The notes under the pieces were generated by a model. The model was given only the letters and a program-made list of their open reading frames with translations. It was not told where the DNA came from and made no database searches. Shown in pieces: positions 4,500 to 54,038 of a stretch of DNA of 64,000 nucleotides (positions are counted from its first letter, which is position 1; the number at the start of each line of letters is the position of its first letter). The position numbers were made by a program, and so were the translations under genes. The stretch is from Okamejei kenojei (Eukaryota): NCBI GenBank assembly GCA_035221665.1, contig CM069147.1:25854001-25918000 (forward strand), given 5' to 3'.

Positions 4500-5135
4500 T
4501 GACGGTAAATTTTCCTTTAGATATCGCTTTTCCTTGCATATCCATGTGCCCAACTAAAGGTTTCTTAAACACTATTATTACACTTTATCTGGCTTCACCA
4601 CCACAACATCAGCGTTCCAGCTACCCACCGCCCACTCTGTAAAACAATTGCCCGAAAACATTTCCAATAAACTTTGCTCTTCTCACATAAACCCCTCTCG
4701 CCTGACATTTCCAACCCTTGAAATAGGTCCTCACTGTCTGCCCTATTTTTGCCTCTCATAATTTCATATACTTCTATTATATCTCCCCTCAACCTTTGAC
4801 ATTTCAGAGAAAACAATCCAAGTTTGCCCAACCTCTCCCTATAGCTAATTCCCTCTAACCCGGCAACATTCAGATAAAATAGACAAAGTGCTGGAGTAAC
4901 TCAGCTGGTCTGTCAGCTTCTTTTCTTTAGACTGAGTTCTGACCCGAGATGTCACCCATCCTTTCTCTCCAGAGATGTTGCCTGACCCGTTGAGTTACTC
5001 CAGCACGTTTTGTCTATTTTAGGTTTAAATCAGCATGTGCAGTTTATTTCTAAGCATTAAGGTAGACCTCTTCTGTACCTTTTCCAATGCGTCCACATCC
5101 TTCCTGTAATGGGGTGACCATAGCTGCACACGTTA
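4500..5135 (-). mobile_element. CR1 fragment
   Basis: LGLFSL..RLRGDIIEVYEIM. Confidence 0.75.
4878..5050. mobile_element. Old palindromic Penelope-tail element
   Basis: GCTGGAGTAACTCAG ... TTGAGTTACTCCAGC inverted arms. Confidence 0.6.
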
Positions 5136-7027: not shown

Positions 7028-7125
7028 GCCTGAAGAAGGGTCTCGATCCGAAACGTCGCCTATCTCCTTCGCTGCTTAGATGCTGATGCACCCGCTGAGT
7101 TTCTCCAGCCTTTTGTGCACCCTTC
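7028..7125 (+). mobile_element. Penelope-tail mini-element with hammerhead core (7030-7057), inserted directly before the receptor ATG
   Basis: CTGAAGAAGGGTCTCGATCCGAAACGTC...CTGAGTTTCTCCAGC; TSD TGTTCTAC at 7020-7027 and 7126-7133. Confidence 0.88.
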
Positions 7126-10859: not shown

Positions 10860-11275
10860 TGGATACATATAAATGACCTGGATATAAATGCAGATTGGGT
10901 TGTTGAGTAGGTTTATTGACGACACCAACACTGAAGGAAATGCTGACAGTGAGAAAAGCAGTCAGATGATAGAGCAGGATATGGGCCAGTTACAAAAATG
11001 GGCGAAGAAATGACAGATGGGGAATAACCAGTGCAAAAATAAAATGTTGTACTTCGGGGGTTGAATGTAAGAGGGAAGGATATAGTTTATGATGTGCAGA
11101 GGTATCTTAGAGTCCAGCTTCATTGCTCACTGAACGTAGCAACACAAGTAGATAGGGTGGTAAATAAGGCGAATAGTATGCTTACCTTCAGTATTAGCGG
11201 CGTTTAATATAAGAGTCAATAGTCATTATGCAGCTACATAGGACTTTGGTGATGCCGTATTTTAGTATCACATGT
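10860..11275 (+). mobile_element. Degenerate CR1 RT fragment
   Basis: YINDLD...FIDDT..QLQKWAKKWQM pattern. Confidence 0.7.
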
Positions 11276-11362
11276 TGATGGGAAATGTTCGTAGTTACGA
11301 GTTCAAATATGGGCCCGTGTTTCGATTTCTGCTATAATTTCATGTCTTCTTCTCAACTTCAG

Positions 11363-11415
11363 GTAGCACTCAACTGCTTGAAAAGCCAAATTATATCTGG
11401 GGAGTGGGCTTTTAA
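11363..11415 (+). CDS. Candidate cytoplasmic/terminal exon of the VJ-C1 receptor (GSTQLLEKPNYIWGVGF*)
   Basis: Good pyrimidine tract TCTTCTTCTCAACTTCAG|, open in phase 1; the 3' part runs into CR1-like sequence; an alternative candidate is 12925-12968. Confidence 0.35.
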
Positions 11416-12301
11416 TGGCGATGTGCGGGCAAGGTTTTTACGCAGAGAGTAGTGGGGGCCTGGAACACATTGGCAAATGTCCTGGCAACATCTTCGTAAA
11501 TATCTCTGCACCCTATCCAACTGCAATAATCATTTTTAAACTAATTAAATACCATATGAAGGAAATGTATGCCCATGCGAAAACATGAACTGCTTCAAAA
11601 TCTATACAATTCTTTAGAAACTCATCAGATGCTTACGAACAAGACCTGATTCTGCGATTCTGTCCGCCCAATACTTGTCACAGTTATTCCAAATCTAATG
11701 TCAACAGGCTAACGCCAAATTGTTTCAACATTACCCTGGTCACGTTTTAACGCCTTTGAATACAACAAAACCAGGACAAGCATTTCCCTTCCAACATTCT
11801 TCAATATAATCTTTCGTAACGATTTTAGCGATCATTTGAACGATTGAATTATGTGAAACAAACACGGAGACAAATGCGGTTTTCTCCAGAACAGCGAGTG
11901 GAATATTCCTTTTGCGAACCATTTGGGCGACTGTACACGGTTGTGAACTAACTACAAAATCCATTGATTTTATAGATCATGAAGGAGGTGATTGAATATA
12001 CGCCACACCATCGTAAATGGCACAGGCTTTATCAAAAGATAAGAACGAAAGGCTGTGAATAATCTGTTGATATCCACTTGAAACAAGGAACAATGAACGA
12101 TGAATTCCAAATAATGTAGCAGGACAAATAAATAATTGGATGAGCTGGAGACTACATTAACCTGAACTAGACGAACTGCCATCTGTTAATAAAAATGTCA
12201 ATGTGGCATTCTGACAACTTCAAATTAAAGCGGATTATTATTTATTGCGCATTGCACACGCGCGTGTGTGTGTAGCTCTGTGTGTGTGTGCTCGCTTGTG
12301 T

Positions 12302-12639
12302 NNNNNNNNNNNNNNNNNNNNNNNNNNNNNNNNNNNNNNNNNNNNNNNNNNNNNNNNNNNNNNNNNNNNNNNNNNNNNNNNNNNNNNNNNNNNNNNNNNN
12401 NNNNNNNNNNNNNNNNNNNNNNNNNNNNNNNNNNNNNNNNNNNNNNNNNNNNNNNNNNNNNNNNNNNNNNNNNNNNNNNNNNNNNNNNNNNNNNNNNNNN
12501 NNNNNNNNNNNNNNNNNNNNNNNNNNNNNNNNNNNNNNNNNNNNNNNNNNNNNNNNNNNNNNNNNNNNNNNNNNNNNNNNNNNNNNNNNNNNNNNNNNNN
12601 NNNNNNNNNNNNNNNNNNNNNNNNNNNNNNNNNNNNNNN
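12302..12639. other. Assembly gap next to a (GT)n microsatellite
   Basis: N run. Confidence 1.
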
Positions 12640-13624
12640 GTCTGTTTAGGTGGTTTGGGTTTCCATGAGCATGGGTTTGTTAGAGTGTTTATGCCCGTTT
12701 TTCCCTCAAGGTGTGAGCGTGCTGAGCTTGCGCCTTTGCGTGTATTTGTTCAGTACTGCAAGTCTGGTCTGAAAGCTTGCAGCTAAATGTTATTTGACAA
12801 ATCATTAATTAATTAATATAATATAGTTTAAAGGTCATCAACTTAATTAGTATTGTGGAATTATAAAACATTTCGGAATATGACGGTATACACTAGCTAT
12901 TTTAAATACCAATTACTTGTTTAGATGCCGAACGCATGAAAGGCAACGGACAAGATGGAATACAGTGATAAATTAACAAGCAATATTGAAGCCTTGCCTA
13001 AACCATGATATTTCTGGTTCTCTTGTAAACATGACGCAGAACCGTTGAAAAGCATGAACGTTTAGCAGAATATTTCTGTAACTAAGAAGGCGGGAAAGCC
13101 ATGTGTAGCTGAATTATCATGAGAATAAGAGTACCGGTATTGATTTGTTTTACCTGTTAGAGTACGCCACTGTGCAGATATGCCGAATCTGACTGCTGTT
13201 GGGACTTGCACAAGAAAGTAGTGCACAAACATTTTTACCGGTAAATATTTTAGAAGATGTGTTGCTGGCAGATGTTCAAATAAGAAATATTAGCTGAAGA
13301 AGAAATATGGGAATATTCAGTCCATCTGTGAAGGAATATAGTTCGAAATAAGGGTTTGTTGGGCAGATGAATCTTGACTAAGAGAATAATTTTGTCGTCG
13401 ACGTGAAACACTGATGTAAAACAATAAATGTCATGTTTCTCCCCGAAATGGTGTCTGTACTGGACGTCTCGCCCATTCCTCTCTCAGATTTCGGTTACTC
13501 TCTAGAACACAGACGGCATCCTAAGACACTGACAACTCCCTGGCGCACACCACCTCCTTCCATCTGAAACTCATTCAATTTAACTCGTCTGCTAAAGAAA
13601 ATTCATAATTCCTCTTGTCTTCTC

Positions 13625-17923: not shown

Positions 17924-18193
17924 TGTTAGCTTGTGTAGGAAGTTGCTGATTGCTTGATGGCATCACACCAGTAATAGATTCCTGTCAATTCACGCCGAAA
18001 GGCATTGCAAATTAAAAGTTCTCGCTTCACAAGACCGCCCGATCCTTATGGGAGCTTACTTGGGCGAGAAATCTAATCATAAAACTTATTAACTTTATTC
18101 GATGTCATTTCTGGGTTTTTTTAAAGAAGATCTTGTGACGAGGTGTGAAAGGAATCTTTTTCATGCTGTGAAACAACATGGATTTCAGAGGAT

Positions 18194-18548
18194 TACACAA
18201 AAAGCTGGAGAAACTCAGCGGGTGCAGCAGCATCTAAGGAGCGAAGGAGATAGGCGACGTTTCGGGTCGAGACCCTTCTTCAGACTGGTCAGGGATCAGG
18301 GAAACGAGAGATATAGACGGTGATGTGGAGAGATAAAGAACAATGAATGAAAGATATGCAAAAAAGTATCGATGATAAAGGGAACAAGCCATTGTAAGCT
18401 GTTTGTGGTGTGAAAATGAGAAGCTGGTGCGACTAGGGTGGGGGGGGGGGGGGGGAGAGATAGAGATAGAGGGAATGCCAGGGCCCGAGGGCTGAGGGAG
18501 AGGTGGGAAGGGGAGGAGACAGCAGGGGTAACAGAATTGAGAAAATTC
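18194..18548 (-). mobile_element. Penelope 3' end fragment with intact hammerhead core (18256-18283)
   Basis: Reverse complement of the ORF end (EFSQFC) and the tail seen at 23180-23400. Confidence 0.85.
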
Positions 18549-19259
18549 TGGATTTCAGAGGAAATGTATTTAACATGGCGGCGAGCACACACAATACGTG
18601 ACATTTCATCGCCACCTACTGGTCATATAGTGTTCGATAGTTGACCGCACAGTAATCATTAACCTTTACGAGTCAATTACTCAATCCCGGCTTAAATCTC
18701 CCCGCAACCCACTAAGAAAACATCCCATTGGCTTCTGCAGTCTATCGGCAGAACTAAAATCCATCATCCTTGGAATCATTTAGGTAAACCTCTTCCCCAC
18801 TTTACACGTTCCCTGTACAGCGGCCAGAAATGGCCGTTATAATTCTGAAATTATAGTGTCTTATAAACGTTTATTCGGGGGAAAGTCCCGTATCTTCCAT
18901 GACTTGTTCGTGTTCCGGACACCGTACATTTTGTTCTCATTTAAAATCGCATCTCCATTGCTGTTGTGTTCGTCCAGTTTTAGATGTACAATCCAAAAAA
19001 ATATTTAATGGAAACTGTCCAGCCACCCAGGTAAACTGGTGGAAAACGTGCGTGTGAACTAACTGAGGTCTGGTCAAAATGATGCTAAACTTTATATTTA
19101 ACCTCCCGTTTGTATCTAACCGCAGTTACTGTTAAACTGTCAAACTCCATTCATCAGCTGTTATAGGAATCGGTTTACTCTTTAATATATATCGAAATAT
19201 TTCATTTGTTTATACTAGAATTGGGCACCCTTTTTTCAAAAAGCTCTTTTCATCTGCTG

Positions 19260-20619: not shown

Positions 20620-23600
20620 ATGCTTCTTTGCTCTTCAACTGTGACCTCCTGGTTCTGGACTCCACCAACATGGGGAACATTTTTCCTGCTTCTAGCATGT
20701 CCAATACAATGTTATGTTTTAATATGATCCCTTCTCATCCTTCTAAATTCCAGTGAACAAAAGCCCAGTCAATTCATTCTTTCAACACATGTCCATCCGC
20801 CATCCCGGGAATTAACCTGGTGAACCAACGCTATACTACCTCAATAGCAAGAATGTCCTTCCTCAAATTAGGAGACCAAAACTGCTCACAATATTCCAGG
20901 TGCCGTGTCACCAGCGCTCTGTACAACTGCAGTAGGACCTCCTTACTCTATCAACTCAAAACCTCTCGCTATGAAGGCCAATCCATTAGCTTTCTTCACT
21001 GCCTGCCTTTCCTGCATGCTTACTTTCAGTGACTTGATATACAAGGACACTTGGGTCTCGTTGCACCTACCCTTTTGCTAATCTGACACCTTTTAATAAT
21101 AAAAATTCCTTCTTGTTCTTGTCACCAAAGTGGATAACCTCACATTTATCCATATTGTACTGCATCTGCCCACTCACCCAACATATCCACGTCACTGTGC
21201 AGCCTCATAGCATCCTCCTCGCTGCCACCCAGTTTTGTCTTCCGCAAACTAATAGATGTTACATTTAATTCCTTCATCTAAATTGTTAAAATAGATTATA
21301 AATAACTGGGGTCCCAGCACTGAGCCTTGTGTCACCCCACTAGTCACTGCCTGTCAATCTGAAAAGGACCCGTTAAGTCCTACTCTTTGCTTACCAGTCA
21401 GCCAACCAGTTCTCTATGCATGTCAATACCCTACCCCTAATACGGCGTGCTCTAATTTTGCACACTAATCTCTTGTGTGGGACCTTGTCAAAGGCTTTTT
21501 GAAAGTCCAGATACACCACATCCACGGGCTCTCCCTTATCCATTCTACTTGTTATGTCCTCAAAAAATCCAGAAAATTAGGCAAGCATGATTTTGCCTTC
21601 ATAAATCCATGCTGACTTTGACCGATCCTGTCACTGCTTTCTAAATGCGCTGCTATTACATCTTTAATAATCAATTCAAGCATCTTCCCCACTACACAGA
21701 CCCATTGTCTCTGCCTGTTCATGCCCCACCGAACACTTTCCACATAACTTGACTCCATCCTATCCCCCTTGGTTAAATCCCTCCCCACCTACGTTCAAGC
21801 CACCTCAGACACTCTCCGTCATCTCCGCGCATTCCATTCTCCAGGCCCCCATCCTCTCATCTTCACCATGGATGTTCAGTCACTCTACTCCTCCATCCCC
21901 CACCAGGATGGTCTCAAAGTCCTCCAATTCTTCCTTGACCAGAGGAGCAACACATACCCGTCCACTGACACCCTCCTCTGCCTAGCAGAGTTGGTCCTTA
22001 CCGTCAATAACTTCTCTTTTGACTCCTCCCATTTCCTCCAAATACAAGGCGTAGCTATGGGCACATGCACGGGCCCCAGCTACGCCTGCCTCTTTGTCGG
22101 GTACGTCGAACAATCCTTGTTCTCGGCATACCAGGGCCCCATCCCCGACCTCTACCTCCGTTACATCGACGACTGCTTTGGTGTCACCTCCTGCACCCAC
22201 ACACAACTGACTGACTTCATCCATTTCACCAACAACTTCCATCCGGCACTCAAATACACCTGGACCATTTCCGACACTTCACCATCTCCATTGCAGGGGA
22301 TACACTCCTGACCGACATCCACTACAAACCCACTGACTCCCACGGCTACCTGGACTACTCTTCCTCCCACCCTGCTTCCTGTTAGGACTCCATCCCCTAT
22401 TCCCAATCCCTCCGTCTACGCCGCATCTGTTCCCAGGATGAGGTGTTCCACACCAGGTCATCACAAATGTCCTCATACTTCAGAGAACGGGGATTCCCCT
22501 CCCCCATAGATGAGGTTCACACCAGGGTCTCCTCCATACCCCGCAACACTGCCCTCTCTCCGCATTCCCCCACTCGCAACAAGGGCAGAGTCCCCCGGTC
22601 CTCACATTTCACCCCACCAGCCGGCACATACAACGCATAGTCCTCCGCCAGTTTCGCCACCTCCAACGTGACCCCACCACTCACCACATCTTCCCATATG
22701 CCCCCGTCTGCCTTTCGCAAAGATCCGCTCCCTCCGCAACTCCCTTGCCAATTCTTCCCTTCCCTCCCGCTCCACCCCTTCCCCGGGCACTTTCCCTTGC
22801 AACCGCAAGAGATGCTACACTTGTCCCTTCACCTCCCCCCTCCACTCCTTTCAGGGACCCAAGCAGTCCTTCCAGGTCCGACAGAGGTTCACCTGCACCT
22901 CCTCCAACCTCATCTACTGCATCCGCTGCTCCAGATGCCAGCTAATCTATATCGGAGAGACCAAGCGGAGGCTTGGCGATCGTTTCGCCGAACACCTCCG
23001 CTTGGTCCGCAATAACCAACCCGACCTCCCGGTGGTTCAGCACTTCAACTCCCCCTCCCATTCCGTATCTGACCTCTCTGTCCTGGGCCTCCTCCACGGC
23101 CAGAGTGAGCAACACCGCAAATTGGAGGAACAGCATCTCATATTCCGCTTGGGGAGTCTGCATCCTCTTGGCTTGAACATTGAATTTTCTCAATTCTGTT
23201 AACCCTTGCTGTCTCCCGTTCCCACCTCTCCCTCAGCCTACGGGCGGCTCCTCCTCCTTTTTCCTTTCTTCTCCTCGCCCCCCCCCCCCCCCCCCCTCCA
23301 CCAGTCTGAAGAAGGGTTTTGGCCCGAAACGTTGCCCATCCCCTTCGCTCCTTAGATGCTGCTGCACCCGCTGAGTTTCTCCAGCTTTTTGTGTACCCTC
23401 GATTTTCTAGCATCTGCAGTTCCTTCTTTAACACTGATGTTAGGCTAACATCTATGATTCTGCTTTCTCTCTCCCTCCTTTCTTAAAAAGCTGGGTTACA
23501 TTTACTACCCTCCAGTCCACAGGAACTGATCCAGAGTCGAGAGAACTTTGGAAAATAATCACCAATGCATCCACGATTTCCAGGGCCACTTCCTTGAGTA

Positions 23601-26519: not shown

Positions 26520-26720
26520 CTCAAGAAACTGCAGATGTTGGAAACTTGAACAAAACACAAAATGCTGGAAGGACTTTGCAGGTCAGGCAGCATTCAGGAA
26601 GGGAATGGACAATGTTTTGGCTCTTCAGACTCTGATGCAGGGACCCAACCTAAATCGTCAGTTGTCCATTTCCTTCACAGATGCTGCTGACCTGTCGAGA
26701 TCCTCCACCACTTTTCTACC
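26520..26720. mobile_element. Old palindromic Penelope-tail element in the septin 3' UTR region
   Basis: Inverted arms (CAGGTCAGGCAGCAT / ATGCTGCTGACCTG) around TTCAGACTCTGATG. Confidence 0.55.
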
Positions 26721-28046: not shown

Positions 28047-31000
28047 CTGGGAAGGATGGAAAAATAAAGTTAATTCACTCAAACACAGCACACACAATAT
28101 GCAGAAAAAGAGAAACAGTCCTGGGAGGGCAGTAACATGCAGTAGCATGCAAGCTTACATCCCTCATCTCATGCGCACTGTCTCTACTCTCCTTTCATAT
28201 ACCCATGTACCATCTCCCTCATTCATGCAGCTAGCTGTACACGCTCCCTTATTTACACTTCACCTCCGACAGCCACCTTTGTCGCACTCTTCCCTCATTT
28301 TCTCAGCACACACCCAAGAGCAGGTCTCCCCATTGCTATACAATGCCCATTCACACTCAGCGTTTTCCCCACACAAACCTCCTCATACACTCTCACAAGT
28401 ACAATTACCACTAACTTCGAAGCATCCAATTTCTGCTGTTCCAACAAGCGTTGCTCTGCCTCCCATGCTACTTTCTCTTCCTCAAACTGCTTCCTCTTCT
28501 CCTCCAGCTCCTTGTATTGAGCCTCCAGGTTTTTCTTCATCTGTTCATGTCGGCGCTGCAGCTACAGGGGCGTGGAGACAGAGAAGGGAGGAGGAGAGGG
28601 AGGGTGTGGGTAGCAAGGAAAGAGGCGGCAGGAAAGGGAAAGTGAGAGCAGGAGGGGAAGCCAGGGAAGGGAGAAGGGGAAGGGGGTGGAGTAGGTGTGA
28701 AGAGGGAGGGAGTGGCAACAGGAAAGGAAGAGCGCCTTTAGTTTCTACAACATTCTGAAATGGCTGAGTACATCACAGTCATGCTCCCTGGGTAATGTCC
28801 AATTCAAACCAACCACTCTCTTTCAGTACAGATGTGTCCAGGTAGGGACAGAATTACATATTCTGGGACAAGCAGAGGACACCAAGATGGATGGGTTACA
28901 AGACACCAAAATGCCATTAGTTGCAGTCAAAAGCTACAGAGAGAGGAAGGTGCAGAAACCGTACGGAAGGGTCAATGGAGATGTGGGGTGGGGATGGTGG
29001 ATAGAAAAGCTTACTTCATTCTCAGAGTCCTTCAATTTCTGTTTCTTCTCCTTGACCTTCATCTCAAACACTTGTTCCATCTCAGTCTCCATTTTTTTCA
29101 TCTTCGCCACATGCTCTCGACGCTCTTCCTCCATCTCAGCGAGAGGGCTCCTGCATTAATAAAGTCAATTACCTTCTTGCACTTTACCTGTGCCTCAATT
29201 TGTTCTGTACAGGCAGTAAGCATGACCAGGCCCATCGTCTGCCAAACAAACCCAAGATTGAACAGCAGACTCCGTGACCATTTACTGAAGTACCTTCCAC
29301 AAGGAAGTCGCATGCAAGCCAGCACAGGAAGTTTCACAAAAAAGGATGCGCTCTCCAGTTTCTCCTTTTAACTATCCTTAATGTTAGTACAGTAAAGTCA
29401 AGCGCAAAGGTCAACACCTGCATCCTGTTCATAGAATAATAAAGAAATAGTCAGCACAGAAACAAGTTGTTTTGGCCGACTTCGCCTGTGATGCCTAAGC
29501 ACTGTGTATGCATTTCCCTGCTTAATGCCACTATTGCTTTATGCCAATTCCTCAATTTAATGTAGCACCATACCCCCTTTCCTGCACCTCCCCACCATGG
29601 TACACACCCATTTCACCCACTATCCCACCCCCCCTCCCCCAGAAAGCTTCCCTTTTCACCTATCCCCCCCACCTGGCTATATTTTACTCCTTTTCTCTCC
29701 TTATATTACACTACTCTGTCTCCATTTCATCTCTAGCCTGTGAATACCATCTGCCAAACAACCCATCCCTCACCTATAGCCTGGGCTTTGTCCTGCCCCA
29801 CCTCTTTTTCAGCTTTCTCCCACCTACTACAATCAATCTGAAGGGCCTTGAACTGAAACATTGCCTATCCATTCCCTCCACATGCTGCCTGACTCTGAGT
29901 TTCTCCAGCACATGTTTTGCTGACAATTAAACACGTGTGACTGTTTCACTACCCTATCCACCTGTGCTGCCACTTTGAGGGAATTATGGACACTCCAGGG
30001 AAAAATATTATCCTGTCACTTCATATAACGCAAGCTGTCCAGTACCAGTAATATCCTTATGGGGCTGTCCCACTTGGGCGACCTAATTGGCGAGTTTAGA
30101 AGAGTTTAGGAGAGTTTGAAAAAATGACACTTTGAAGACCTCCTTCGACTACGTTGAAGACTAGCTACGACTAACTTCGGGAAAATTGGACCGAATAGTG
30201 GAGAGTGAAGACGACCTCCTTCGACTATGATGAAGACTATCTACAACTACCCTCGACTACCCTCGATTACCTATGACTAACATGCCGACCCACTATGACG
30301 AAATCTACGAGTAAAAAAAGTATCAATTTTTTCCATGGCGACATTTTTTTACTCACGGGCATTTTTTAACATATTGAAAAAAAACGCCGCAATCTATCTG
30401 AGGCCTCGAGTATGCAGAGACCACTCTCGAGCGTGAAGGAGAGTTACGAAGACCTCCTATGACCTCGTGTCGACCATGCTGCGAGTATGAGTCGAGGGCA
30501 AACTCGCCAGAGCTCGCGGATTAGGTCGCCCAAGTGGGACAGGCCCCTTACAGGTCTTTTCTGCACCCTTTCCCGCTTAATGATATCCTTTCTCTTCCTA
30601 GGCAACCAGAACTGCACACAATACTTCAAAGTGTTGTCTCACTAAAATCTCGCATAGATTAACATAAGTCTTGTACTCAAGTTCTCAATTCCTGTACTTA
30701 AGTTCCTTGACCAATGAAGGCAAGGGTGACAAATCATTCTTCACTGCCCTGTCGCCACCTTCAGGGAAGTACATACTTATACCATTGGGTCTCTCTATTA
30801 TCAACGATGTTAACATCATTGCCATTTCCTCTACATACCTAACTGATATGACCTCCCAAAGTGCTTTATCTCACACTTGTTTAGATTAAATTTCATATGC
30901 CATTGCTCTATTCAATTTTACAACTGATCTATGTCTTCAACAACCTTCCCTATCTATGACCACCAATTTTCTTTCCATCTGTAAACTTACTAATCATATC

Positions 31001-34000
31001 CCATTCATTCTCATCCATGTCATATATTCCAATCAGCGACTTATTAGAAAACAGTTACATCTTGAACATCTTCCCCACCAGTGAGGTTAGATTCATCAGC
31101 CACTAGTTTGCAGTGTTACTCTCATTGACCTCTAAACCATTTCTATCTATGTACCTGTCCAAATGTATTTTATAGGCTGTTAATGTAGCTGCCTCAACTA
31201 CTTTCTTTGGCAGCTCATTCTAAATATCAGCCCCTATGTGAAAAAGTTGCCCATCATGTTCCCGTTAAATCTTTCCACTGTCACTTTAAACCTAAGCCCT
31301 TTTAGTCCTGAATTATCCTCTACCCTTGAAAAAAAACTGACTATTCAACGTCACCCCTCAGCCTCCTTAACTCCAGTCCCAGTATATCCCGGCTCACTGA
31401 TAACTCAAGTCCTCAAAACCTGGTAAACTCTGTGCTTGGACATGGCGGTCCAAAATGACACAAAGTACTGGAGCAACTCAGTGATTCATACTGCATCTCT
31501 GAAGAACATGATAAGTGATGGTTTGGGTTGAGACCCTTCTTTTGCTAATTGTGAATGGAGTGGGGGTGAGCGGGGGGGGGGGGGGGGGGGGGGGGGAAGG
31601 TGGGAGAGGAGACGCAAAACAAAGTGTGGCAGGTAATAGGTGGATACAGGCGAGGGGGGGCTTTGATAGCAATGGTTGGAGCAAATGTCAAGAGATTAAA
31701 GCAGAATTTGAGAGAGAGATTGAAAAGTTGCAAATTGTGAAGCCAGAGGAAGGAATGTAAGGAGCGAGAGGGGATAAATTAGTGTGAGTGCAGGTGGGCA
31801 CAGGGGAGGGGGGGGGGGGGGGGGGATGAAGGTTGTTAGAGATTACCTAAAATTGGAGAATTCAATGATCATGCCATTGGGTTGTAAGCTACCAGAGCGG
31901 AATAAAAGGTGGCGGTTTCGTTCCTCCAGTTTGTGTGTGTCTTCATTCTGGAAATGAAGGCGGCCCAGGAATGAAACATCAGTACGGCATGGGAACGGGA
32001 GTTAAAATAATTAACAACTGGGAGATCCCATATCCTGGTTCCATTTTGGGGGAATGGGAGTGAGAGAAAAACCACAGGACACAGGGGAGACATGCTTGTC
32101 CAGTCTTGTGTCCCCCACCTGGACCATTGACCTTGTGTTCTCCCTTTCATCTCCCCAGGCAATTCACCTCAGTTGTTATGACTGCAGTCTCCAACCTACC
32201 CCAGGCAGATAATCGGCCAGCATGTGAGGGACAATATACCGACATAAACAAACACCAGATGGCGCTGGCCAATGTCTTCCTCAGCATTGCCGAGGATTTC
32301 AACAAGCTAGCTTGAAGAAGACTTCCAAATTACCATTAGTACATCTCCAGCAAGAGAGGATTAAATACTCACGACCACTGCTACTCCACCATCAGAGAAG
32401 CCTATGATTAGCCTGCACTTTGGAAAATTGGACCACCTGGCTCAAAAGATCAACAGCAGATGCAATCTTGCCGATTCTCTACTTTGCCGGACCATTTGGA
32501 CACCAGGAACATTCCTACCAAACTCATCAGACTCAGGAGTTGGGACTCTGTTCATACTGAGCAACTGGATCCCAGCCTTTCTCTTCAGCCGACTTCAGAC
32601 TAGCGATTGATAACAACACTTCCGCCTCACTGACCAACAGCAATGTAACACCTCAGACCCATGTTCACCAATTATACCACCACTGTTGAACGAATAACAA
32701 GCAACAATAAATCAGAGAACAGGAGGGATGTTGTTAATCTGCTTGAATGGTGCTAGACAACAATCTTGTTCTCAACGATAGCAAGATCAAAAAGCTGATG
32801 TTTACTTAAGAAAGGGAAAGCCAAGGAATCATAAACCTGTCTTCATGGATGAGACAGCATTAGAGAGTTCCTGGTATTGACCTCCCCACCATTGAAGAGA
32901 TCTACAAGAAGCAATGCCTCAAGAAGGCAGCAAAATCAAAAACAACCCCATCTTGACCACACACACTTCTCACTGCTGACGTGGAAAGAAGTTACAGGTG
33001 CCTGCAAATTGTTACCTCCAAGTTCAAAAAGTGTTTTTTCCCAATTAATCATCAGGTTCTTGAAACACCTTGCACAACCCCAAACTAAACACCAATTCAC
33101 GAAGGGCTTTATACTATGGTTGCTCTTAAGCACTGTCATGGTCTGTGTTACTTAGAATAACTAATAATTTGTTTATTTATTTGTTATTGTTGTTGTGTCC
33201 TATCCATGGTTGTCGGATTCAAAACTAGCTTACTCATAGAAGATACTGGGTTGAGGTGGAAAGATATATTGTTCTGGCTATAGGTCCCTGACCAGTAGAG
33301 TTCCACAGGGATGTGTGTTGGGACCTCTGTTTGTTTGTAATGTGAACAATTTTGATGTACATGCAGATGGGTTGGTTAGTAAGTATGCTACAAAGCATAC
33401 TATCCCTAATCAGCCCTTGCCCATCCAAATGCCTGTATAACCTATCCCTCAGAATACTCTCCAGTAACTTTCCAACTACAGATGTTAAGCTCACCAGTCT
33501 ATAGTTCCTAGCATTTTCCCTGTAGCCTTTCTTGAAAAGAAGCACAACATTTGCCACCCCCTCCAGTCTTCCAGCAACTCTCCTGAATTTAAGGATGACT
33601 CGTAAATTTCAATCAGGGCTCTCGCAATTTCCTCTCTGGTTTACCCACAATATTCTAGGATATATCTGATCGGTCAATGGATATTTTTAATACAGAGATC
33701 TTGATTCTTGATTAGTAAGGATGTCAGAGGTTTTGGTGGGAAGGCAGTGCAACAAAGTTTGAGTACACAGCACAGCATCTCCATGCAGCTCAATATGCTG
33801 CAGCTCAAATCTGATGTTTGGTTACTGCTCATCTCATTAATCGTGGATAAATTGATGGTGGGTTTATTTTGCAAGCTAACTGGGCAACAGGCAGCATATT
33901 TTCCATGGTGCTCACCTGGTGAGGCGGCCTTTTGTCTTACTGGCATCAACTCCATTGCCCGTCACAGCTGCCAGCTTTCGACTTCGATAGTTTTCGTAGT

Positions 34001-40000: not shown

Positions 40001-43000
40001 AATGGCGGGAACGCTTGTGGCACATGTGAAAGTGTGCGAGTGGCTGAGCAGAAGTGGGAACGGGTTGTAATGGACAAGGCCAGGAGTGAGGCCCAACTGT
40101 GGACAGACGAGGCCGGGAGTAGGGCCCAGCTGTGGATAAACGAGGCTGGGTGTGAGGCCTAGCTGCGAACAAAGCAAGGGGAGGAGGGAGATCCATCTGT
40201 GGATGCAGCGAGGATGGGGGGTGGGGTCCAGCTGTGTAGACGATATATTGTGTTCAATTCTGGACACATTTTCTGGATGTGAAGATTTATGAGAGCATAC
40301 ATTAAAGATTGCAGAAATGATAACTGGAAGGCGATCCCAGAATGGTAATTAAAATTACGATGAGTCGTCTTCATGGTTGTGAGGAGTTCCCACATTTTGG
40401 CAACTAGTCGCGGCCTCATTATGTCGGTGAGAATTTTTCAACATGGTGAAAAATTAGCGGCGTCCAGAATGAAGTCGCAATGGAGATTAGCGAGAATTCT
40501 CGAGCCGTAGGTCGGTCGCCAGGACGTCTTAAGGTTCTCATAGGTTGGAGCCGGGGCTGATTGGTGAATTTCATTGGCTCATTGGGGGAAAAAGGTAAGC
40601 AGTAGTTTTCAGAACCAAGGAACTGACCGGTAATGTTAAATGTCCGCGAACTTCACAGCCGTGTATCTCTCGCTTCTTAAAAGTTGTCTCTACTCCTCGT
40701 TACTCCTTCTCCCTCATTCTCCCCCCCCCTCCTCTTTTAAAGGACTTACCGTACACTGTGCTTTAGCTCTCTTAATTACAGCGCCAACCTTCCCGTTCAT
40801 CACGGTGCGTGTCTGTATGACCTTGGCTTTGCACCGTGGGAATTTTTTAGACAGCGTTNNNNNNNNNNNNNNNNNNNNNNNNNNNNNNNNNNNNNNNNNN
40901 NNNNNNNNNNNNNNNNNNNNNNNNNNNNNNNNNNNNNNNNNNNNNNNNNNNNNNNNNNNNNNNNNNNNNNNNNNNNNNNNNNNNNNNNGTCGCCGTTCCA
41001 ATTCCCGTTTTTTGAGCCAACTGCTGGCAACTCCCATGCAAATCTCACCCGTGTCCTGAGGGTGCAATAAAGTACAGGCAGCAGTGCACTCGCGTATCTG
41101 CTATCTGTCGCCGGTTCACTCGTGACTCAGAGTTCAGGAATTCCTCAAATCTGCTGTCGATATAATTTACAACTGGCTGCCAACTGCAAGGAAACCAGAA
41201 AGATTACAAATCAATAATAGACACCATCAGCACTTTGGGTGCTTTCTTACACTTGCATGTTTTCGTTTACTTTAGAGATACAGTGTGGAAACAAGCCCAT
41301 CGGCCCATTGTCCGTGGAACCAAAAAACACCCGTACACTAGTTCTATCCTGCACACTAGGGATCGTTTACAGAAGCCAATTAGCTTACAACCCTGTACAT
41401 CGTTGGAATGTGGGAGGAAACTAGAGCACCTGGAGAAAACCCACACGATCACAGGGAAAACATACAAACTCTGCACAAACATCACCTGTAGTTAATGCTG
41501 AGTGATGCTCTACCTAGAGCTTTTCAGTGTACTACATCCAGATCCAGAGGATCTCTGGCGTTGCAAAGCAGCAACTCTATCACTGCGCCACTGTATTTTT
41601 TTCTTTTAAAATCTGACAACTTTCCAAGATGGCAGTTATAATTATAAGATACAAGAGACGGTGTAAGTAAAATCTGAAACTACCAATTACTGTTGTCCAC
41701 CGCATCTCCAAATCCTGGGGTATCGACAATAGTCAGTGTAAGCTGCACTCCTCCTTCTTTAATTTGAACCTTTGCGTGTTCAACCTGGAAACAAACAGAT
41801 AAACTGCATTCAGGCCACTGAATACCATGTCTAAAGCTAACACACATTTACAGTGAAAGTGGCAAGAGCAGGGGTATGAGCAAATTTCAAGAACAAAAAA
41901 GGAAAAGAAAAGGCAGGCAATCATTCAATGGTACTTTGTCACGTGTACCCAAGCACAGTGAAATTCGTTTTTGCATACCGTTCAGTGACAATCCTGCTGG
42001 ACATTAGGCGTAATATAATAAATATAAGAGTGTAACACAGTGGACCATACTGAGTCTGTACACAACAGTTACCACATTTTTTGTGCCATCTTCGTGGAAC
42101 TCCAAGTACTTCGTGGGAGTCAGCATGCAGTTGATGGTTCCAACAAAGCATAAGGATCTACACGAGTAGACAAGTGCCCAAAATATTAACCAGGCATATT
42201 CACTAAAGCTCAAATAAGTCAGGATCTGGTGAGGCTGGACCACAGATAGGCCATTGAAAAGAGCAGGGTGTTCAGAAATCCCAACACACATACACACAAA
42301 ATAAAGCACTCCACAAGCAACAAACACATGAAGAAACAATCACACAAATTATACTATTGGACAATGTGGAGTTGCATCTGTCAACATGAATTCTAATCCT
42401 CATGAGGGTACACAAAAAGCTGGAGAAACTCAGCGGGTGCAGCAGCATCTAAGGAGCGAAGGAGATAGGCGACGTTTCGGGTCGAGACCCTTCTTCAGTC
42501 TGAAGAAGGGTCTCGACCCGAAACGTCGCCTATCTCCTTCGCTCCTTAGATGCTGCTGCACCCGCTGAGTTTCTCCAGCTTTTTGTGTACCCTCGATTCT
42601 CCAGCATCTGCAGTTCCTTCTTTAAAACTCTAATCCTCATGACATCAGTCGATCAGACATTGAAACTGCTTTCTGATTATCACCAATTGCTAGCCTTCAG
42701 CTGATGACACAAGACTTCACATTGATTTGGACTAGGGAAAAGTAGGGAAAACACCAAGGACGTGCAATGTAGTGAAGACAGATCATTCAATATATCATTA
42801 AGAATATCTCAGGAGAACCGTCACTGCTTCAAGATGCACAAATTGTGAAAAGTAAAGCTGTTTCACTAGGTGTGCAGCAAGTGGTGAGAGAATTAGCAAG
42901 GGATGACCAAACTTCACCCATCCACCATCTCCAGATGTATGTGCCCATGACAGTATCAAGAATGACCACTGCACAGCCATTGTGGAGACAAACTCCCATC

Positions 43001-46000
43001 TTCGCACCAAGGGTAACCTCTACTTTGACAAATTGGATACATTTAGAGTACACCTCGCAGCTAATGAAACACTATAAATCATCTGGCATAGAAAATGGTA
43101 CTATGTCACAAACTCTCCTGCAGCACACAGTGGATGAAGAAGCTCACAGCCAACCGGCAAATCGCCTGTACAGTTTAAGAAAATTAAGGAAGATAAGCAA
43201 CATCTATGAAAAAATAAATAACTTGCTTTTTCTTTTCACAGATGCTGTCTGAGGTTTTCCAACATTTTCTACTTTTATTTAACATTTCCAGAATCTGCAA
43301 ATTTTTAATTACCTGTACAGTTTTCTTGATCCTAAGTGACGGACCAGGATATTCCTTGGAGTACAGGTCTGACAGGAAGAGGGAATTGATCAATGTTGAT
43401 TTGCCAAGGCCCGATTCACCTGAAGGGAAAAAAAAAAAATAACAGTACAGATAAATCTCAACCAGGCATCATAGGGTTAGATGTGGACACCCAACACAGG
43501 TCACCCTGGATGCGAGTCATGCAATGGGTCTTTTCCAAACGGCCAGTCGACTGGATGCTGCAGTAGTTCACTTGTACAACCTTCTCATTGTAGCTTGAAC
43601 TTTGCCTACTCTGTACATCACAAACAATAAATGGAACACAGCACGAGAAATAATTCATACCTAGCCAAAGCAATTGCTGGCATGCAATCCAAACCTAGAT
43701 GGGTTGGTTGGTAAATTTGCAAATTACTCCAAGATTGCTGGAGTTGTGCGATGAAGGCTGTCAAAGTAAAGTGAGATCTAGATCAGCTCAGAAACAATGG
43801 GTAGAAAATACCTGGATTAGAGGTTATGCACTATAAGGAGTGATTGGACAGACTTGGATTGTTTTATCTGGAACACCAGAGGTTGAGGAGGGACCTGATG
43901 GAAGTACAGGTCCCCCACTGATTTTCCAGCACAATGTCAGTCTCAGAAGTTGGCTATAGGAAGGGATTTGCCGGCTGCAGCTGGGCTGGAGTTCCAGATG
44001 CCCCAAGCACAGGGGGAAAATTTGTCCTGCCGATCGGAAATCCGGCCGCGAAAGCCATTTATGGGAACAGATCGTCCAGTCCGGAGTTCCAGAGCCCTGG
44101 CCGCATGATGAAAATTTGACCCACTGATCAGAAGTCCATCCACGAAAGTCCCGATGAGGTCAAGATGGACCACCTCGCCCATCCTAAGCGACATATTTTC
44201 AGGGAGGGACTTCCGGGGGGGGGGGTTCAAATGCGATCTCGTAATTTTTTCCATATTAAAGGAGGTGTCGGACCATCAATACTAGAAAGCATAGATGTAT
44301 TGTGAGAGGGGTAAAGTTTAAAGGAGATTTACAAAGGGTGATGAGAGCCTAGAATGCAATGCTGGGTGTGGTACAACAGGCAGATACAATAGTGGTGTTT
44401 AATAGGCTTTTGAATTGGCACATAGATATGCAAGGAATGGAGAGATGTGGATTATATGTAGGCAGGTAAGAGTTTGCGTTGGCATCACGTTCCGCACAAA
44501 CATTGTGGGCGGAAGAACCTATTCCTGAGTTGTTCTATGATCTAAAAGCGTCATCCTGATAAATTGAGTAAAAAATGTAATTTAGATGGGTTTAACTCAT
44601 TGTAGGCTGATTTTAATGTACAGGGCGGCAAGGAGGCGCAACAGTAGAGTTGCTGCCTTACAGCGCCAGACACCTATGTTTGATCCTTATTACGGGTACT
44701 GTCTGCACGGAGTTTGTGTGTTCTTCCCGTAACCCGAGGTGTTTTCTCTGGGATCTCCGGTTTCCATTCACACTCCAAAGACGTATTGTTTGTGGGATAA
44801 TTGGCTTGGTATAATTGTAAATTGTCCCTAGTGTGTGCAGGACAGCATTAGTGTGCGCGGATCGCTGGTCGGCGCGGACTCAGTAGGCCGCAAGGCCTGT
44901 TTCCGCGCTATATCTCTAAACAACAGGTACTTTGGGGTACTTTACTTATATATCCTACTCCAACCCTGTCTGTGGCCTTCTGCACTAATAATACTGCCAA
45001 CTTGAGAATCTCATCTTGTGTTTCAGCACACTGCAGCTTTGAGCTCTCAATATCAAATTCAACAACTTCAGGTAACCTGCTTTCTCTGTCGAGCGAGCAA
45101 AATCATTTATCTGTGATATTGATTTTGTGTTTCCTCTTTCCTTTAGCATCACCAGACTTGCTGGCACATCTTAAGAGTCCAGCAATTCAGGACCTTTATT
45201 TCCCTTGTCTGTTTTCATGCTCTCTAACTGCCTGCATTTTACAGCTTTTATAAGCAAATTATAATAGTTTGTCCTCCATCAATCCATCAGTCAGATGACC
45301 AAGTTTACACCTTATCCCCATGGGCAATCCTGGCCTCGCCCTTTGACAGTTGTCTTATCCATCGTTCACCCACCCTCACAGTAAAACAATATAGATAGTT
45401 CTGCTGTAACATAATACATGTTCACAACCGATTTTCCAGCAACTGAAACAAAAACTGGAAATCCTGGAAACGCTCATCAGGATGGACACATTTATGGAAA
45501 GACAAAGTCAAAAAGCCTTTTGGCAGTACTGAAACAAAGAGAAAACAAGTTAGTTTCAATTGCGGTGAAGGTGGGAAAGAAAGAAGCAGAACAAACAGAA
45601 TCACTATTTGGTCGAGATCAAATGAGCACAAACTGCAGTTAGTCAGCAGTATTAAGCATCGCAAACAGAAAAGCTGAGGGACACATCTCGCAGGCAAGAT
45701 TGCGGAGAGGGATGTCTGGCAGAAATATCCCATTCTGTGGCAGTCCTCATAAAAGTATTCCAATCTTGATATTGGAAAAGAAGTTCCAGGATTTCCACCC
45801 AAAGATAATACACAAACAGAGGTATTGTTCCAAGTCAGGACAGTGCTTGACTAGATGAATCTGCAGGTAATGATGCCCCATGAAGCTTGCTGCCAATGTT
45901 ATTCTTGATGTTCATAAGGTCATAAGGAATAGGAGTTGAATAAGGACATCCAGCCCATCATGTCTACTCCGCCACTCAATCATGGCTGATCTATCTCTCC

Positions 46001-52628: not shown

Positions 52629-53860
52629 TGTACGGGCATATAGTGATGGCCCTGTTAATATCGAACCCTCGCGATTAGCTGGCGCGGGTCACATGAGCGC
52701 GGGAGCTTTTTCGCGGGTTTTTCTGTTAACCACTCATTCCAGCATCACGCGAATAGAATAAGCATCGTTTATATTTGGCTGTCAAACTCGACTCGGGTGA
52801 CAACTTTATTCTCGTTTTAAAATAAAGAAATTTGTATACCCTACCATCTCGACTTGCCAAACTGGTGACCCCGCTAGTCCGATCGGAATTCAGACTCTCG
52901 ACATGCAAGCCGCCGCCATCCCCGATGCCCTGCAAAACGCTGTGGGCCTCAAACTGCCCGTTTCCTGGGCCGAACAGCCTCAGGTGTGGTTTGCCCACAT
53001 AGAGGCCCAGTTCCACCTTCGGAATATCGTGGTCGACGACACCCGCTATTTTTACGTCGCTGGGGCACTCAACCAAGAGAAGGCTATGCGGTGGCTGCCG
53101 TACCTACAAGACCCACCGGCGATCGGCAAGTACGAGGGCCTCAATGCCCTACGGAGCAGTAGGGCTCAACCACCGAGAAGTATCTTCGGGCTCAACCGCC
53201 GAGATCGCTCCGCCCGCCTGCTCCACATGGACGGCCTAGGTGATTGGAAACCATCCGCCTTGATCGCGTTGATGGACGGCCATCGACCCTGCCTGCTTTT
53301 CGAGTAGGCGTATCTCAAACAAATGCCTCAAACGACATCAGCTTGCTGCTCGCCCGGTCTGACTTCACAGACCCTATGCAGCTCGCAGAGTGGGCCGACG
53401 AATTGTGGCTCGCGAAACAGCAGGACGTCGGGTCCATCAACCGGGTGTCCGAGCCCGCAAGCCAGCAGCCCCGCAGAGATGCCCAGCCCTCCGCTGCCAT
53501 CACCGGGGTAAGCGGCAGTGGTGTTTCTACCACCTCCGCTGGGGCGCAGAGACCCGCCGATGCCGCCCCCCACTGCACGTTTACGGGAAACACCTCGGCC
53601 GATCGTTAGTAGGGCCTATCGCGATCGGCCAAAACAACCGCCTTTACGTGCGAGACCAGCATTCTGGACTTCGTTTCCTGGTCGACTCCGGGGCCATCGT
53701 CAGCATCCTCCCCCCGACTGGGCTGGACAACCGTGCTGGTAAGCGAGGCCCTGTCCTGACTGCGGTCAACCTCAGAAACCATCCGCACCTCCAGCACGTG
53801 GACCCTATCCCTAACCTTCGACTCCCAACCATATGAATGGACCTTTATCGTCGCGGACGT
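52629..53860 (+). mobile_element. Ty3/Gypsy LTR retrotransposon (CsRn1/Kabuki-like), 5' part only: LTR, tRNA-Trp PBS, gag, protease
   Basis: ~230-bp LTR with AATAAA (52821), PBS TGGTGACCCCG at 52863-52873, gag AVGLKLP..W..WFAHIEAQF, CHCC-type motif WCFYHLRWG..RRCRPP, protease FLVDSGA; stops and frameshifts. Confidence 0.88.
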
Positions 53861-54038
53861 GGAAAGAAACTGCAGATGCTGGTTTACACCGAAGATAGAT
53901 GCAAAAAGCTGGAGTAACTCAGAGGTCGGTGGGGCTGCTGCGAGATGGCTGCCCTGCCAGCATCGTGTTTGTCATTTCTACTTTTTTGGAGTGTCTAGTG
54001 TCAGTTTGCGTGTCTCTCGGTGTGTCTTATGTGGGGGG

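What the first reader, a model, noticed from the sequence alone, without database searches (positions are those of the whole stretch)
42392..42642. Perfect 95-bp palindromic double-hammerhead element with TSD in septin intron 3
Seen: arms 42404-42498 and 42500-42594 are exact reverse complements around a single T, so two hammerhead cores meet head-to-head at the apex (...CTTCTTCAG T CTGAAGAAG...). One arm continues into the 34-nt Penelope terminus, and the whole is flanked by TCTAATCCTCAT(GA) direct repeats. It has no coding capacity. Zero mismatches between the arms imply a very young insertion. Inference: this is a ~225-bp non-autonomous, retrozyme-like unit mobilised by the Neptune RT/GIY-YIG. 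It presents a ribozyme core whichever strand is transcribed and forms a 95-bp dsRNA hairpin in the septin pre-mRNA (ADAR/Dicer substrate, cruciform DNA).
Basis: partly seen in the sequence, partly recalled or inferred. Interest (0 to 1): 0.72.

Follow-up and report, generated by a model that had tools for sequence, protein, structure and literature searches.

The report
Palindromic stub of a Penelope retroelement
A real 225-base mirror-image scrap of a Penelope-type jumping gene sits in a septin intron; its layout is one already described for these elements, it was likely built during its own insertion, and its ribozyme motif is predicted to be locked in double-stranded RNA, so it is ordinary.

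Summary
There are perfect 95-bp arms around one T, a one-sided 34-nt tail and a 12-14-bp target-site duplication, in the third identified intron of a SEPT7-like gene. The right junction stands in contigs of two samples from two studies. A related species' contig lacks the element at this site, so it is a real, lineage-specific insertion. The arm is the hammerhead-bearing 3' end (pLTR) of a Neptune-type Penelope-like element (PLE) whose RT and GIY-YIG remains lie at 21.7-23.4 kb. The family has 15 loci in the window; 3 are head-to-head, from different subfamilies. Inverted pLTR + tail + TSD + palindromic junction is a published PLE insertion layout (PMC3846280, PMC8557442); this is its shortest form. 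The retrozyme reading fails. Each strand carries one sense core, preceded by its own complement; opening it costs a predicted 46 kcal/mol. Retrozymes are head-to-tail repeats. Best mechanism (inferred): both cut target ends prime reverse transcription at the element's two start sites, both stop at the hammerhead's 5' edge, and they join at a native CAG-T-CTG micro-palindrome. Ordinary, though useful as a mechanistic fossil.

The parts
42392..42403 (.). Left copy of the target-site duplication (12 bp; 14 bp if GA at 42404-42405, shared with the arm end, is counted)
42404..42498 (-). Inverted arm: 95-nt pLTR 3' end without tail; minimal hammerhead core reads on the minus (septin-sense) strand from 42498, predicted cleavage position 42471
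42499..42499 (+). Apex T; it is the native pLTR base just 5' of the CUGA core (CAG-T-CTG also stands in the un-inverted copies at 23306 and 18283)
42500..42594 (+). Direct arm: CUGAAGA core 42500-42506, extra A 42507, stem II 42508-42519, GAAA 42520-42523, palindromic ACGU minimal helix III, predicted cleavage after C 42527
   Evidence: sequence read against the min-HHR description in PMC4209133; fold; no Rfam hammerhead match
42595..42628 (+). 34-nt one-sided PLE tail
   Evidence: matches 23401-23434 of the PLE 3' end
42629..42642 (.). Right copy of the target-site duplication; organism B's orthologous contig begins to align exactly at 42629
   Evidence: (table 8, record 32)
41785..43312 (-). 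Host intron of a SEPT7-like gene (exons 43419-43313 and 41784-41684)
   Evidence: the SEPT7 label is recalled, Pfam gives only Septin
21748..23434 (+). Broken, 5'-truncated autonomous-type relative: RT fragment (21748-22308), CX4CxxC linker and CCHH GIY-YIG (22672-23199), then C-run, hammerhead and tail (23306-23434)
   Evidence: (RVT_1 E 1.2e-5 and GIY-YIG E 3.1e-4, both below the curated cut-off)
18179..18562 (-). Un-inverted copy of the same subfamily (90 of 90 identical to the arm), no tail, with upstream sequence matching the end of the EN ORF, perfect 14-bp TSD
4875..5055 (+). Older, decayed head-to-head copy with tail on one side; apex by eye at A 4931, again just 5' of CTGA
   Evidence: the automatic symmetry scan did not find this apex; no significant TSD
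26523..26714 (-). Older head-to-head copy of another subfamily, tail on one side; apex at 26630, one base further 5' than in the 42.5-kb element
   Evidence: no significant TSD

Best explanation
It is a 225-bp head-to-head stub of the hammerhead-bearing end of a Penelope-like retroelement, flanked by a target-site duplication, and it was likely assembled during one insertion event by the element's own enzyme rather than copied from a palindromic parent. Shown: the anatomy, the homology to the PLE end at 23.3 kb, the TSD, and absence of the element from the orthologous contig of organism B. Inferred steps: (1) the RT/GIY-YIG protein of a Neptune-type PLE makes a staggered cut 12-14 nt apart; (2) both 3'-OH ends prime reverse transcription on pLTR RNA, one at the outer start site (tail end, 42628) and one at the inner start site (about 42589-42594, with 2-nt GA microhomology); (3) both cDNAs stop at the 5' edge of the hammerhead; (4) their ends are self-complementary through the native CAG-T-CTG and pair, and fill-in gives two identical arms, a 1-nt apex and a one-sided tail. 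In a transcript of either strand the arm pair is predicted to zip into 94-95 bp of dsRNA, so the ribozyme would be silent and the insertion is probably a neutral passenger. About 0.8 for formation at insertion. Within that, double-ended priming is preferred over single-cDNA fold-back by roughly 55:45.
For: The arm and tail match the 3' end of the PLE at 23306-23435, which lies behind RT and GIY-YIG ORFs with the CX2-5CxxC linker that marks Neptune/Nematis (PMC8557442). The layout inverted pLTR + pLTR + one-sided 30-40-nt tail + TSD + palindrome at the junction is described for PLE insertions (PMC3846280; PMC8557442). 3 of 15 family loci in the window are head-to-head. The arms of each old one are closer to each other (41/47 and 37/40) than its inverted arm is to the young arm (34/41 and 48/63), and the 26.6-kb apex lies one base off: repeated independent formation. 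The same 90 bp stand un-inverted with a perfect 14-bp TSD at 18283. Un-inverted stubs at 7030, 9194 and 46950 also begin within a base or two of CUGA, so that position is a truncation hotspot. The inverted arm ends where tail-less copies end: 42589 for the 18283 copy, 42593 for 7030. Head-to-tail joints in contigs leave from 42589 (23, 18, 4 contigs in X2, X5, X6) and 42593 (11, 10, 7), and from 42622 near the tail end. In vitro, a Poseidon-clade PLE cuts and extends both target strands, starts at two RNA sites whose spacing is the tail, is predicted to be a dimer, and does not need ribozyme cleavage (PMC11167929). Empty site in organism B and junction present in two samples of organism A. Core predicted buried.
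Against: No genome is held for this window, so apex and arm-end variation across many copies of one subfamily could not be counted; only one young palindrome was examined. The two old palindromes are decayed, give no significant TSD, and their arm comparisons rest on 40-47 aligned bases. TSDs of the solo stubs are weak for 7030 and 9194 (scores reached by 15 and 8 of 394 random pairs; 46950 by 1 of 394). The biochemistry is from another clade (Poseidon). PMC3846280 reads head-to-head junctions as self-priming on an antisense template, and PMC8557442 reads the tail as endonuclease resolution of an intermediate; either could also give this layout.
Confidence: 0.75

Rival explanations
1. Single-cDNA fold-back: one target end primes at the tail, the cDNA stops at the hammerhead, its 3' end snaps back at CAG-A-CTG and copies itself, then joins the other target end through the 2-nt GA microhomology or after endonuclease trimming. 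This is the same by-product status with a different chemistry (a sub-variant of the best explanation).
For: Native micro-palindrome at the apex; perfect arm identity follows automatically; self-priming is the published reading of such junctions (PMC3846280); 2-nt microhomology at the left junction.
Against: It does not by itself explain why the inverted arm ends where tail-less forward copies end. A 3-bp stem with a 1-nt loop is a poor primer: folding programs leave a 3-nt loop at the apex.
Confidence: 0.33
2. Self-propagating non-autonomous family: the whole palindrome is transcribed, for example from host introns, and retro-copied as a unit by the PLE enzyme, like a SINE.
For: It has the tail needed in cis and a TSD. 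pLTR sequences suffice for mobilisation in trans (PMC3846280). The family is very abundant (58,028-70,583 contigs laid per DNA run). In organism B, 155 contigs have loose letters before 42500 whose low-agreement (0.36) consensus ends in the fold-back apex (table 7), so such apexes are probably common.
Against: The three palindromes in the window come from different subfamilies with non-identical apexes. An identical arm exists un-inverted with upstream ORF-end sequence. A 95-bp perfect RNA duplex would hide the inner start site and obstruct the RT (prediction).
Confidence: 0.15
3. Active bidirectional ribozyme (retrozyme-like) that cleaves the septin pre-mRNA or releases circular RNA.
For: All core letters of a minimal type I hammerhead are intact on both strands. 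Forcing the core open still leaves the rest of the hairpin paired, so a protein-assisted refold cannot be excluded, and PLE hammerheads are protein-assisted (PMC11167929).
Against: One sense core per strand, with a minimal helix III that needs a same-sense partner (PMC4209133); 45.7 kcal/mol predicted penalty; on the septin-sense strand the first stem I pair is A opposite G; no head-to-tail repeat at the locus.
Confidence: 0.04
4. Assembly fold-back artefact.
For: Perfect palindromes in high-copy repeats are a known assembly hazard (own knowledge; also noted for PLEs in PMC8557442). No listed contig spans the stretch laid.
Against: Asymmetric tail, a 12-14-bp TSD and unique intron flanks on both sides with septin exons in order; the tail-flank junction stands with 0 differences in contigs from two studies; organism B aligns from the first TSD base; older decayed palindromes of the same plan exist.
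Confidence: 0.03

Closest known systems
Insertion units of endonuclease-bearing Penelope-like elements with an inverted pLTR and one-sided tail (Adineta Pen2a/Pen3a, PMC3846280; general scheme in PMC8557442 Fig. 2 legend)
   Same: Head-to-head inverted copy that is shorter at its outer end, 30-40-nt tail on one side, palindrome at the junction, TSD around the whole unit, hammerhead in the pLTR.
   Different: No ORF and no second direct pLTR: the unit is reduced to two 95-nt arms. TSD is 12-14 bp against 8-10 bp in the Adineta examples. The apex sits at the 5' edge of the ribozyme core, which the passages I read do not mention.
Minimal type I hammerheads of metazoan PLEs (PMC4209133)
   Same: CUGAnGA core, extra base before stem II, G-C first pair of stem II, palindromic 15.2-16.2 with no real helix III, weak helix I; that paper also reports dual motifs on opposite strands about 100-700 bp apart in Schistosoma.
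   Different: Here the two cores abut (1 nt), stem II is 4-5 bp rather than the 7-8 bp of Schistosoma, and the core is predicted buried.
Poseidon element of Anolis (PAc) in vitro (PMC11167929)
   Same: Two RT start sites separated by a tail; copies here end at two corresponding places.
   Different: Different clade; that paper does not treat inverted insertions (1 occurrence of 'inverted' in the listing; none in 3 supplementary files).
Metazoan non-LTR retrozymes (PMC7229834; bioRxiv 10.64898/2026.07.22.740005)
   Same: Small, non-coding, type I hammerhead, long TSD, related to PLE pLTRs.
   Different: Retrozymes are head-to-tail repeats with same-sense ribozymes, expressed as circles; this is head-to-head with one sense core per strand.

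Membership tests
EN+ PLE insertion unit with inverted pLTR | Sequence is the pLTR/3' end of an RT + GIY-YIG element | tested here: met
   89/95 identical to 23306-23400, which follows the RT and EN ORFs
EN+ PLE insertion unit with inverted pLTR | Inverted, 5'-truncated copy adjacent at the 5' end (head-to-head), palindromic junction | tested here: met
EN+ PLE insertion unit with inverted pLTR | 30-40-nt tail on one side only | tested here: met
   34 nt, 42595-42628
EN+ PLE insertion unit with inverted pLTR | TSD around the whole unit, single copy at the empty site | tested here: met
   TSD score above 394 of 394 random pairs; organism B contig aligns from the TSD start with 831 nt before it that do not fit the element; those 831 letters were not displayed
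Autonomous PLE | ORF for RT and GIY-YIG | tested here: not met
   225 bp; no ORF of 150 aa or more overlaps it. It is filed as a stub, not as an autonomous element
Neptune clade (partner at 21.7-23.4 kb) | C-terminal GIY-YIG with CCHH motif and CX2-5CxxC linker | tested here: met
   CNRKRCYTC and C..C...H...H found. Nematis shares the linker (PMC8557442)
Neptune clade (partner at 21.7-23.4 kb) | RT groups with Neptune in a phylogeny | not tested
   no reference PLE set was fetched; Atlas hits were unnamed GIY-YIG clusters
Minimal PLE hammerhead | Conserved core letters, stem II, palindromic minimal helix III | tested here: met
   sequence, against PMC4209133; Rfam gives no hammerhead match at gathering score or among 17 matches with E up to 10
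Minimal PLE hammerhead | Self-cleavage as a dimer or with protein help | not testable with these tools
   needs an assay; folding predicts the core paired
Non-LTR retrozyme | Head-to-tail repeat with at least two same-sense complete hammerheads | tested here: not met
   one sense core per strand, no tandem array at the locus
Non-LTR retrozyme | Ribozyme free to fold in the monomer RNA | tested here: not met
   prediction only: 45.7 kcal/mol penalty
Non-LTR retrozyme | Expressed as linear and circular monomer RNA | not testable with these tools
   only contigs were available
MITE / non-autonomous DNA transposon (features recalled) | Inverted repeats at both termini abutting a short superfamily-type TSD | tested here: not met
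   the right terminus is the 34-nt tail, not an inverted repeat; TSD 12-14 bp; the sequence is a retroelement end

The most novel reading that the evidence does not exclude
These stubs are the frozen product of double-ended target-primed reverse transcription. A PLE dimer primes from both cut target strands at its two RNA start sites, both cDNAs halt at the hammerhead's 5' edge, and the micro-palindrome CAG-N-CTG there is the built-in joint that closes the insertion. The thousands of such stubs in these genomes would then be a ready data set to settle how PLE inverted repeats and tails arise, and would give the pLTR hammerhead region a role as RT stop and joining signal rather than as a cutter.
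Probability: 0.4. Interest if true: 0.5.

Novelty: new member of a known kind. Interest (0 to 1): 0.2.

Why it matters
As a single locus it matters little: it is one intronic stub among 15 family loci in 64 kb, of a published layout. As a class it is useful. The later steps of PLE integration are stated to be unvalidated (PMC11167929), and published readings of the inverted junction and tail differ (PMC3846280, PMC8557442). Minimal young palindromes with known empty sites allow apex base, arm ends and arm parentage to be counted, which separates double-ended priming, fold-back and copying of a palindromic master. If such perfect hairpins are common in introns they would also be a large endogenous dsRNA load, which was not tested here.

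Tried and rejected
Own genome: none held, so no genome-wide copy count. Rfam: 0 matches at gathering score in the whole window; 17 matches with E up to 10 in 42300-42750, all below gathering score, the best being miRNA-precursor models that fit any long hairpin, none a hammerhead. Apex pattern scans: 1 match in metagenome contigs, 0 in prokaryote genomes, 0 in viral contigs. The one match (L001) has only 18-bp arms and no similarity beyond the pattern, so it is rejected as a chance terminator-like hairpin. RNA: no RNA holder listed. The run X16 (RNA is a guess) laid 4,653 contigs, with depth on the element and none on the unique intron flank 42661-42957; its letter changes were of the same kinds as in DNA runs and no A>G place was listed; contigs of a high-copy family cannot show editing, strand or ends, so this is no evidence either way. 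Apex counting in reads failed by design: the stretch began at the apex, so apex contigs fell among those running over its end (11,186-13,370 per DNA run); no opposite-strand joint at the apex was among the 15 of 75 joints shown. Summed depth (about 2e7 against 30) is no copy number. TSD search found nothing above chance for 10 of 15 loci, weak repeats for 2, and clear ones for 3. 5' ends at the ribozyme cleavage site were considered: stubs start about 28 nt upstream of it, so a cleaved 3' product is not the template. Literature searches that found no account of minimal palindromic PLE stubs or of twin priming in PLEs: (open-licence library only; Repbase, Dfam, Arkhipova 2006 and Evgen'ev and Arkhipova 2005 were not available). 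Earlier-findings look-ups by sequence, by place and by a second word set returned nothing. Atlas search gave only unnamed GIY-YIG clusters, no clade name.
Full report
1. Observation. The window at 42404-42594 holds two 95-nt arms that are exact reverse complements around T 42499. The next-best perfect hairpin in the 64 kb has 14-bp arms, and the RNA fold of the region is 25 standard deviations below 200 shuffles. The right arm continues for 34 nt (42595-42628). A 12-bp direct repeat, extendable to 14 bp by a GA that the left copy shares with the arm end, flanks the 225-bp unit; 0 of 394 random boundary pairs scored as high. The unit lies in the minus-strand intron 43312-41785 between septin exons. 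A likely ATG exon near 51.9 kb, in frame with the exon at 47.8 kb, makes this intron 3 (by eye). The SEPT7-like label and my impression that the host is a cartilaginous fish are recalled and come from no call on this window.

2. Is it real and how old? No genome is held. A run search with 41000-44000 listed 24 runs: 5 of organism A holding 0.87-0.93 of the words (two samples, two studies) and others of related organisms. I laid 4 of the 24 (X2, X5, X6, X16) on 42499-43290, that is one arm, the tail and the right flank. In both samples of organism A one 1,266-nt contig runs from inside the tail (42606) to the end of the stretch with 0 differences. One of these samples may be the source of the assembly; the other is from a second study. 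In organism B a 2,050-nt contig aligns only from 42629, the first base of the right TSD copy, with 831 nt before it that do not fit the element; those letters were not shown, and I read them as the left flank of an empty site. The flank differs by 12 letters and two deletions in 662 nt (1.8%). The insertion therefore postdates the split of A and B and is shared by two samples of A. Perfect arms bound arm-to-arm divergence to under 3.1% and would occur with probability 0.18 even at 0.9% drift per arm, so they do not prove extreme youth. The 90-of-90 identity with the copy at 18283 does point to a young subfamily.

3. What the arm is. BLASTN of arm plus tail finds 15 family loci in the window, one of them weak (E 0.075), plus one 17-nt hit that I dropped (E 0.91). 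The closest full end, 23306-23435 (93%), follows an RT fragment and a GIY-YIG ORF (both Pfam scores below the curated cut-off; Atlas features also GIY-YIG). That ORF carries CX4CxxC and the CCHH motif, which PMC8557442 (12 of 20 passages seen) gives for Neptune and Nematis. In the 2026 preprint (parts 1-2 of 5 and passages) the vertebrate PLEs fell in Neptune and Poseidon. Neptune is thus likely, but no tree was built. The arm begins with a minimal type I hammerhead as described in PMC4209133 (parts 1-2 of 4 read; supplement file 1 not searchable): CUGAAGA, an extra A, stem II, GAAA, palindromic ACGU, C17 at 42527. Rfam does not detect it. The family is very abundant: 70,583, 58,028 and 62,777 contigs were laid in the three DNA runs, which is not a copy number.

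4. The palindrome is one of several forms. Of the 15 loci, 3 are head-to-head (42.5 kb, 4.9 kb, 26.6 kb), each with the tail on one side. In the two old ones the arms match each other at 41/47 and 37/40, while the inverted arms match the young arm at 34/41 and 48/63; the 26.6-kb direct arm is closest to the un-inverted copy at 29840 (56/60). The apex at 26.6 kb lies one base further upstream; that at 4.9 kb is placed by eye only. The young arm also occurs un-inverted at 18283, with upstream sequence that matches the end of the EN ORF and a perfect 14-bp TSD. Un-inverted stubs at 7030, 9194 and 46950 start within a base or two of CUGA; their TSDs are clear for 46950 and weak for the other two. 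The native sequence in front of the core is CAG-T-CTG in both copies of this subfamily that keep upstream sequence, so the apex is a pre-existing micro-palindrome. Outer ends fall in two groups: 42589-42594 (inverted arm, 18283, 7030) and the tail end. Head-to-tail joints in contigs leave from the same places, 42589, 42593 and 42622 (15 of 75 joints and 12 of 482 rows of table 5c were shown).

5. Ribozyme. A transcript of either strand has one sense core, preceded by its exact complement. ViennaRNA gives unpaired probabilities of 0.00 for G5-A9 and GAA, and 45.7 kcal/mol to open the core and form stem II, against 4.8 for the single copy at 18283 and 7.5 for arm plus tail alone. Minimal PLE hammerheads showed no cleavage as monomers and little as dimers (PMC4209133). 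The Anolis one needs protein and is dispensable for insertion in vitro (PMC11167929, parts 1-2 of 4 read). On the septin-sense strand the first stem I pair is also lost (A opposite G). Retrozymes are head-to-tail repeats (PMC7229834, 12 of 33 passages; preprint methods), so membership fails. The dsRNA hairpin in the pre-mRNA is a sound prediction; editing or dicing could not be tested.

6. Mechanism. Shown: anatomy, homology, TSD, empty site, recurrence across subfamilies. Inferred: formation at insertion (about 0.8). I prefer double-ended priming. PMC11167929 shows a PLE protein cutting and extending both target strands, with two RNA start sites whose spacing is the tail, and predicts a dimer. 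If the two target ends use the two sites, both cDNAs stop at the hammerhead edge, and their CAG-A-CTG ends pair, the product is exactly TSD, short inverted arm, 1-nt apex, long arm with tail, TSD. The fact this explains best is that the inverted arm ends where tail-less forward copies end. Against it: that biochemistry is from the Poseidon clade; PMC3846280 (passages and Discussion) reads such junctions as self-priming on an antisense template; PMC8557442 attributes the tail to endonuclease resolution; and single-cDNA fold-back gives the same product if trimmed at the inner site. Copying of a palindromic master remains possible (0.15), since only one young palindrome was examined. In organism B, 155 contigs have loose letters before 42500 whose consensus (agreement 0.36) ends in the fold-back apex, a weak sign that such apexes are common, which fits either route.

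7. Comparison and novelty. PMC3846280 describes PLE insertions with an adjacent inverted pLTR that is 37 bp shorter, a 31-bp one-sided tail, 8-10-bp TSDs and palindromes at the junction. PMC8557442 and PMC8969392 (passages) give the same scheme, and PMC4209133 notes dual hammerheads on opposite strands 100-700 bp apart. This element is the ORF-less minimum of that layout. My searches found no paper on such minimal stubs or on twin priming in PLEs, but the library lacks subscription papers, Repbase and Dfam, and the preprint's supplements are closed and may list chondrichthyan families. Two earlier notes of this scan on other genomes reach the same reading; they are unchecked AI notes and are not counted as support. 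Verdict: new member of a known kind; interest 0.2. The mechanistic reading has probability 0.4 and interest 0.5 if true.

Noticed in passing
contigs laid on window:42499-43290 (tables 5 and 5c): Joints from 42530-42535 back to 42499 with AG, CAG or GAG between, in all three DNA runs. They suggest head-to-tail duplications of just the hammerhead core (about 35-nt period, junction a few bases 3' of the predicted cleavage site), an arrangement that could form the active dimer, unlike the palindrome.
   Followed up: no
contigs laid on window:42499-43290 (table 5): Head-to-tail joints from 42589, 42593 and 42622 back to the hammerhead start: partial tandems of the same end exist in organisms A and B and would be the retrozyme-like form of this family.
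   Followed up: partly
window:23278-23305 and 18452-18436, 31572-31596: Long C runs lie upstream of the hammerhead in several family copies; the complementary G run in cDNA could stall reverse transcription and contribute to 5' truncation (untested).
   Followed up: no
window:8600-8930 (+): An exon-like ORF that reads like an immunoglobulin C1-set domain (motifs by eye; its Pfam scan was not completed), next to the family stub at 9194.
   Followed up: no
window:59034-61993 (-) and 52801-53836 (+): ORFs that look like broken Gypsy-type LTR retrotransposon gag, protease, RT and integrase pieces (by eye); a family fragment at 53864-53925 lies inside the second.
   Followed up: no
window:43197-43290: A further decayed repeat near the 5' end of the same intron attracts many contigs (depth up to 4,500) and is joined to family ends in some contigs; it resembles an old tail-like copy of a related family.
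   Followed up: no
window:836-1170, 31851-32027: Further decayed matches to the PLE endonuclease region (68-70% identity).
   Followed up: no
window:62040-62070: Second-longest perfect hairpin of the window (14-bp arms, 3-nt loop), unrelated to the family.
   Followed up: no
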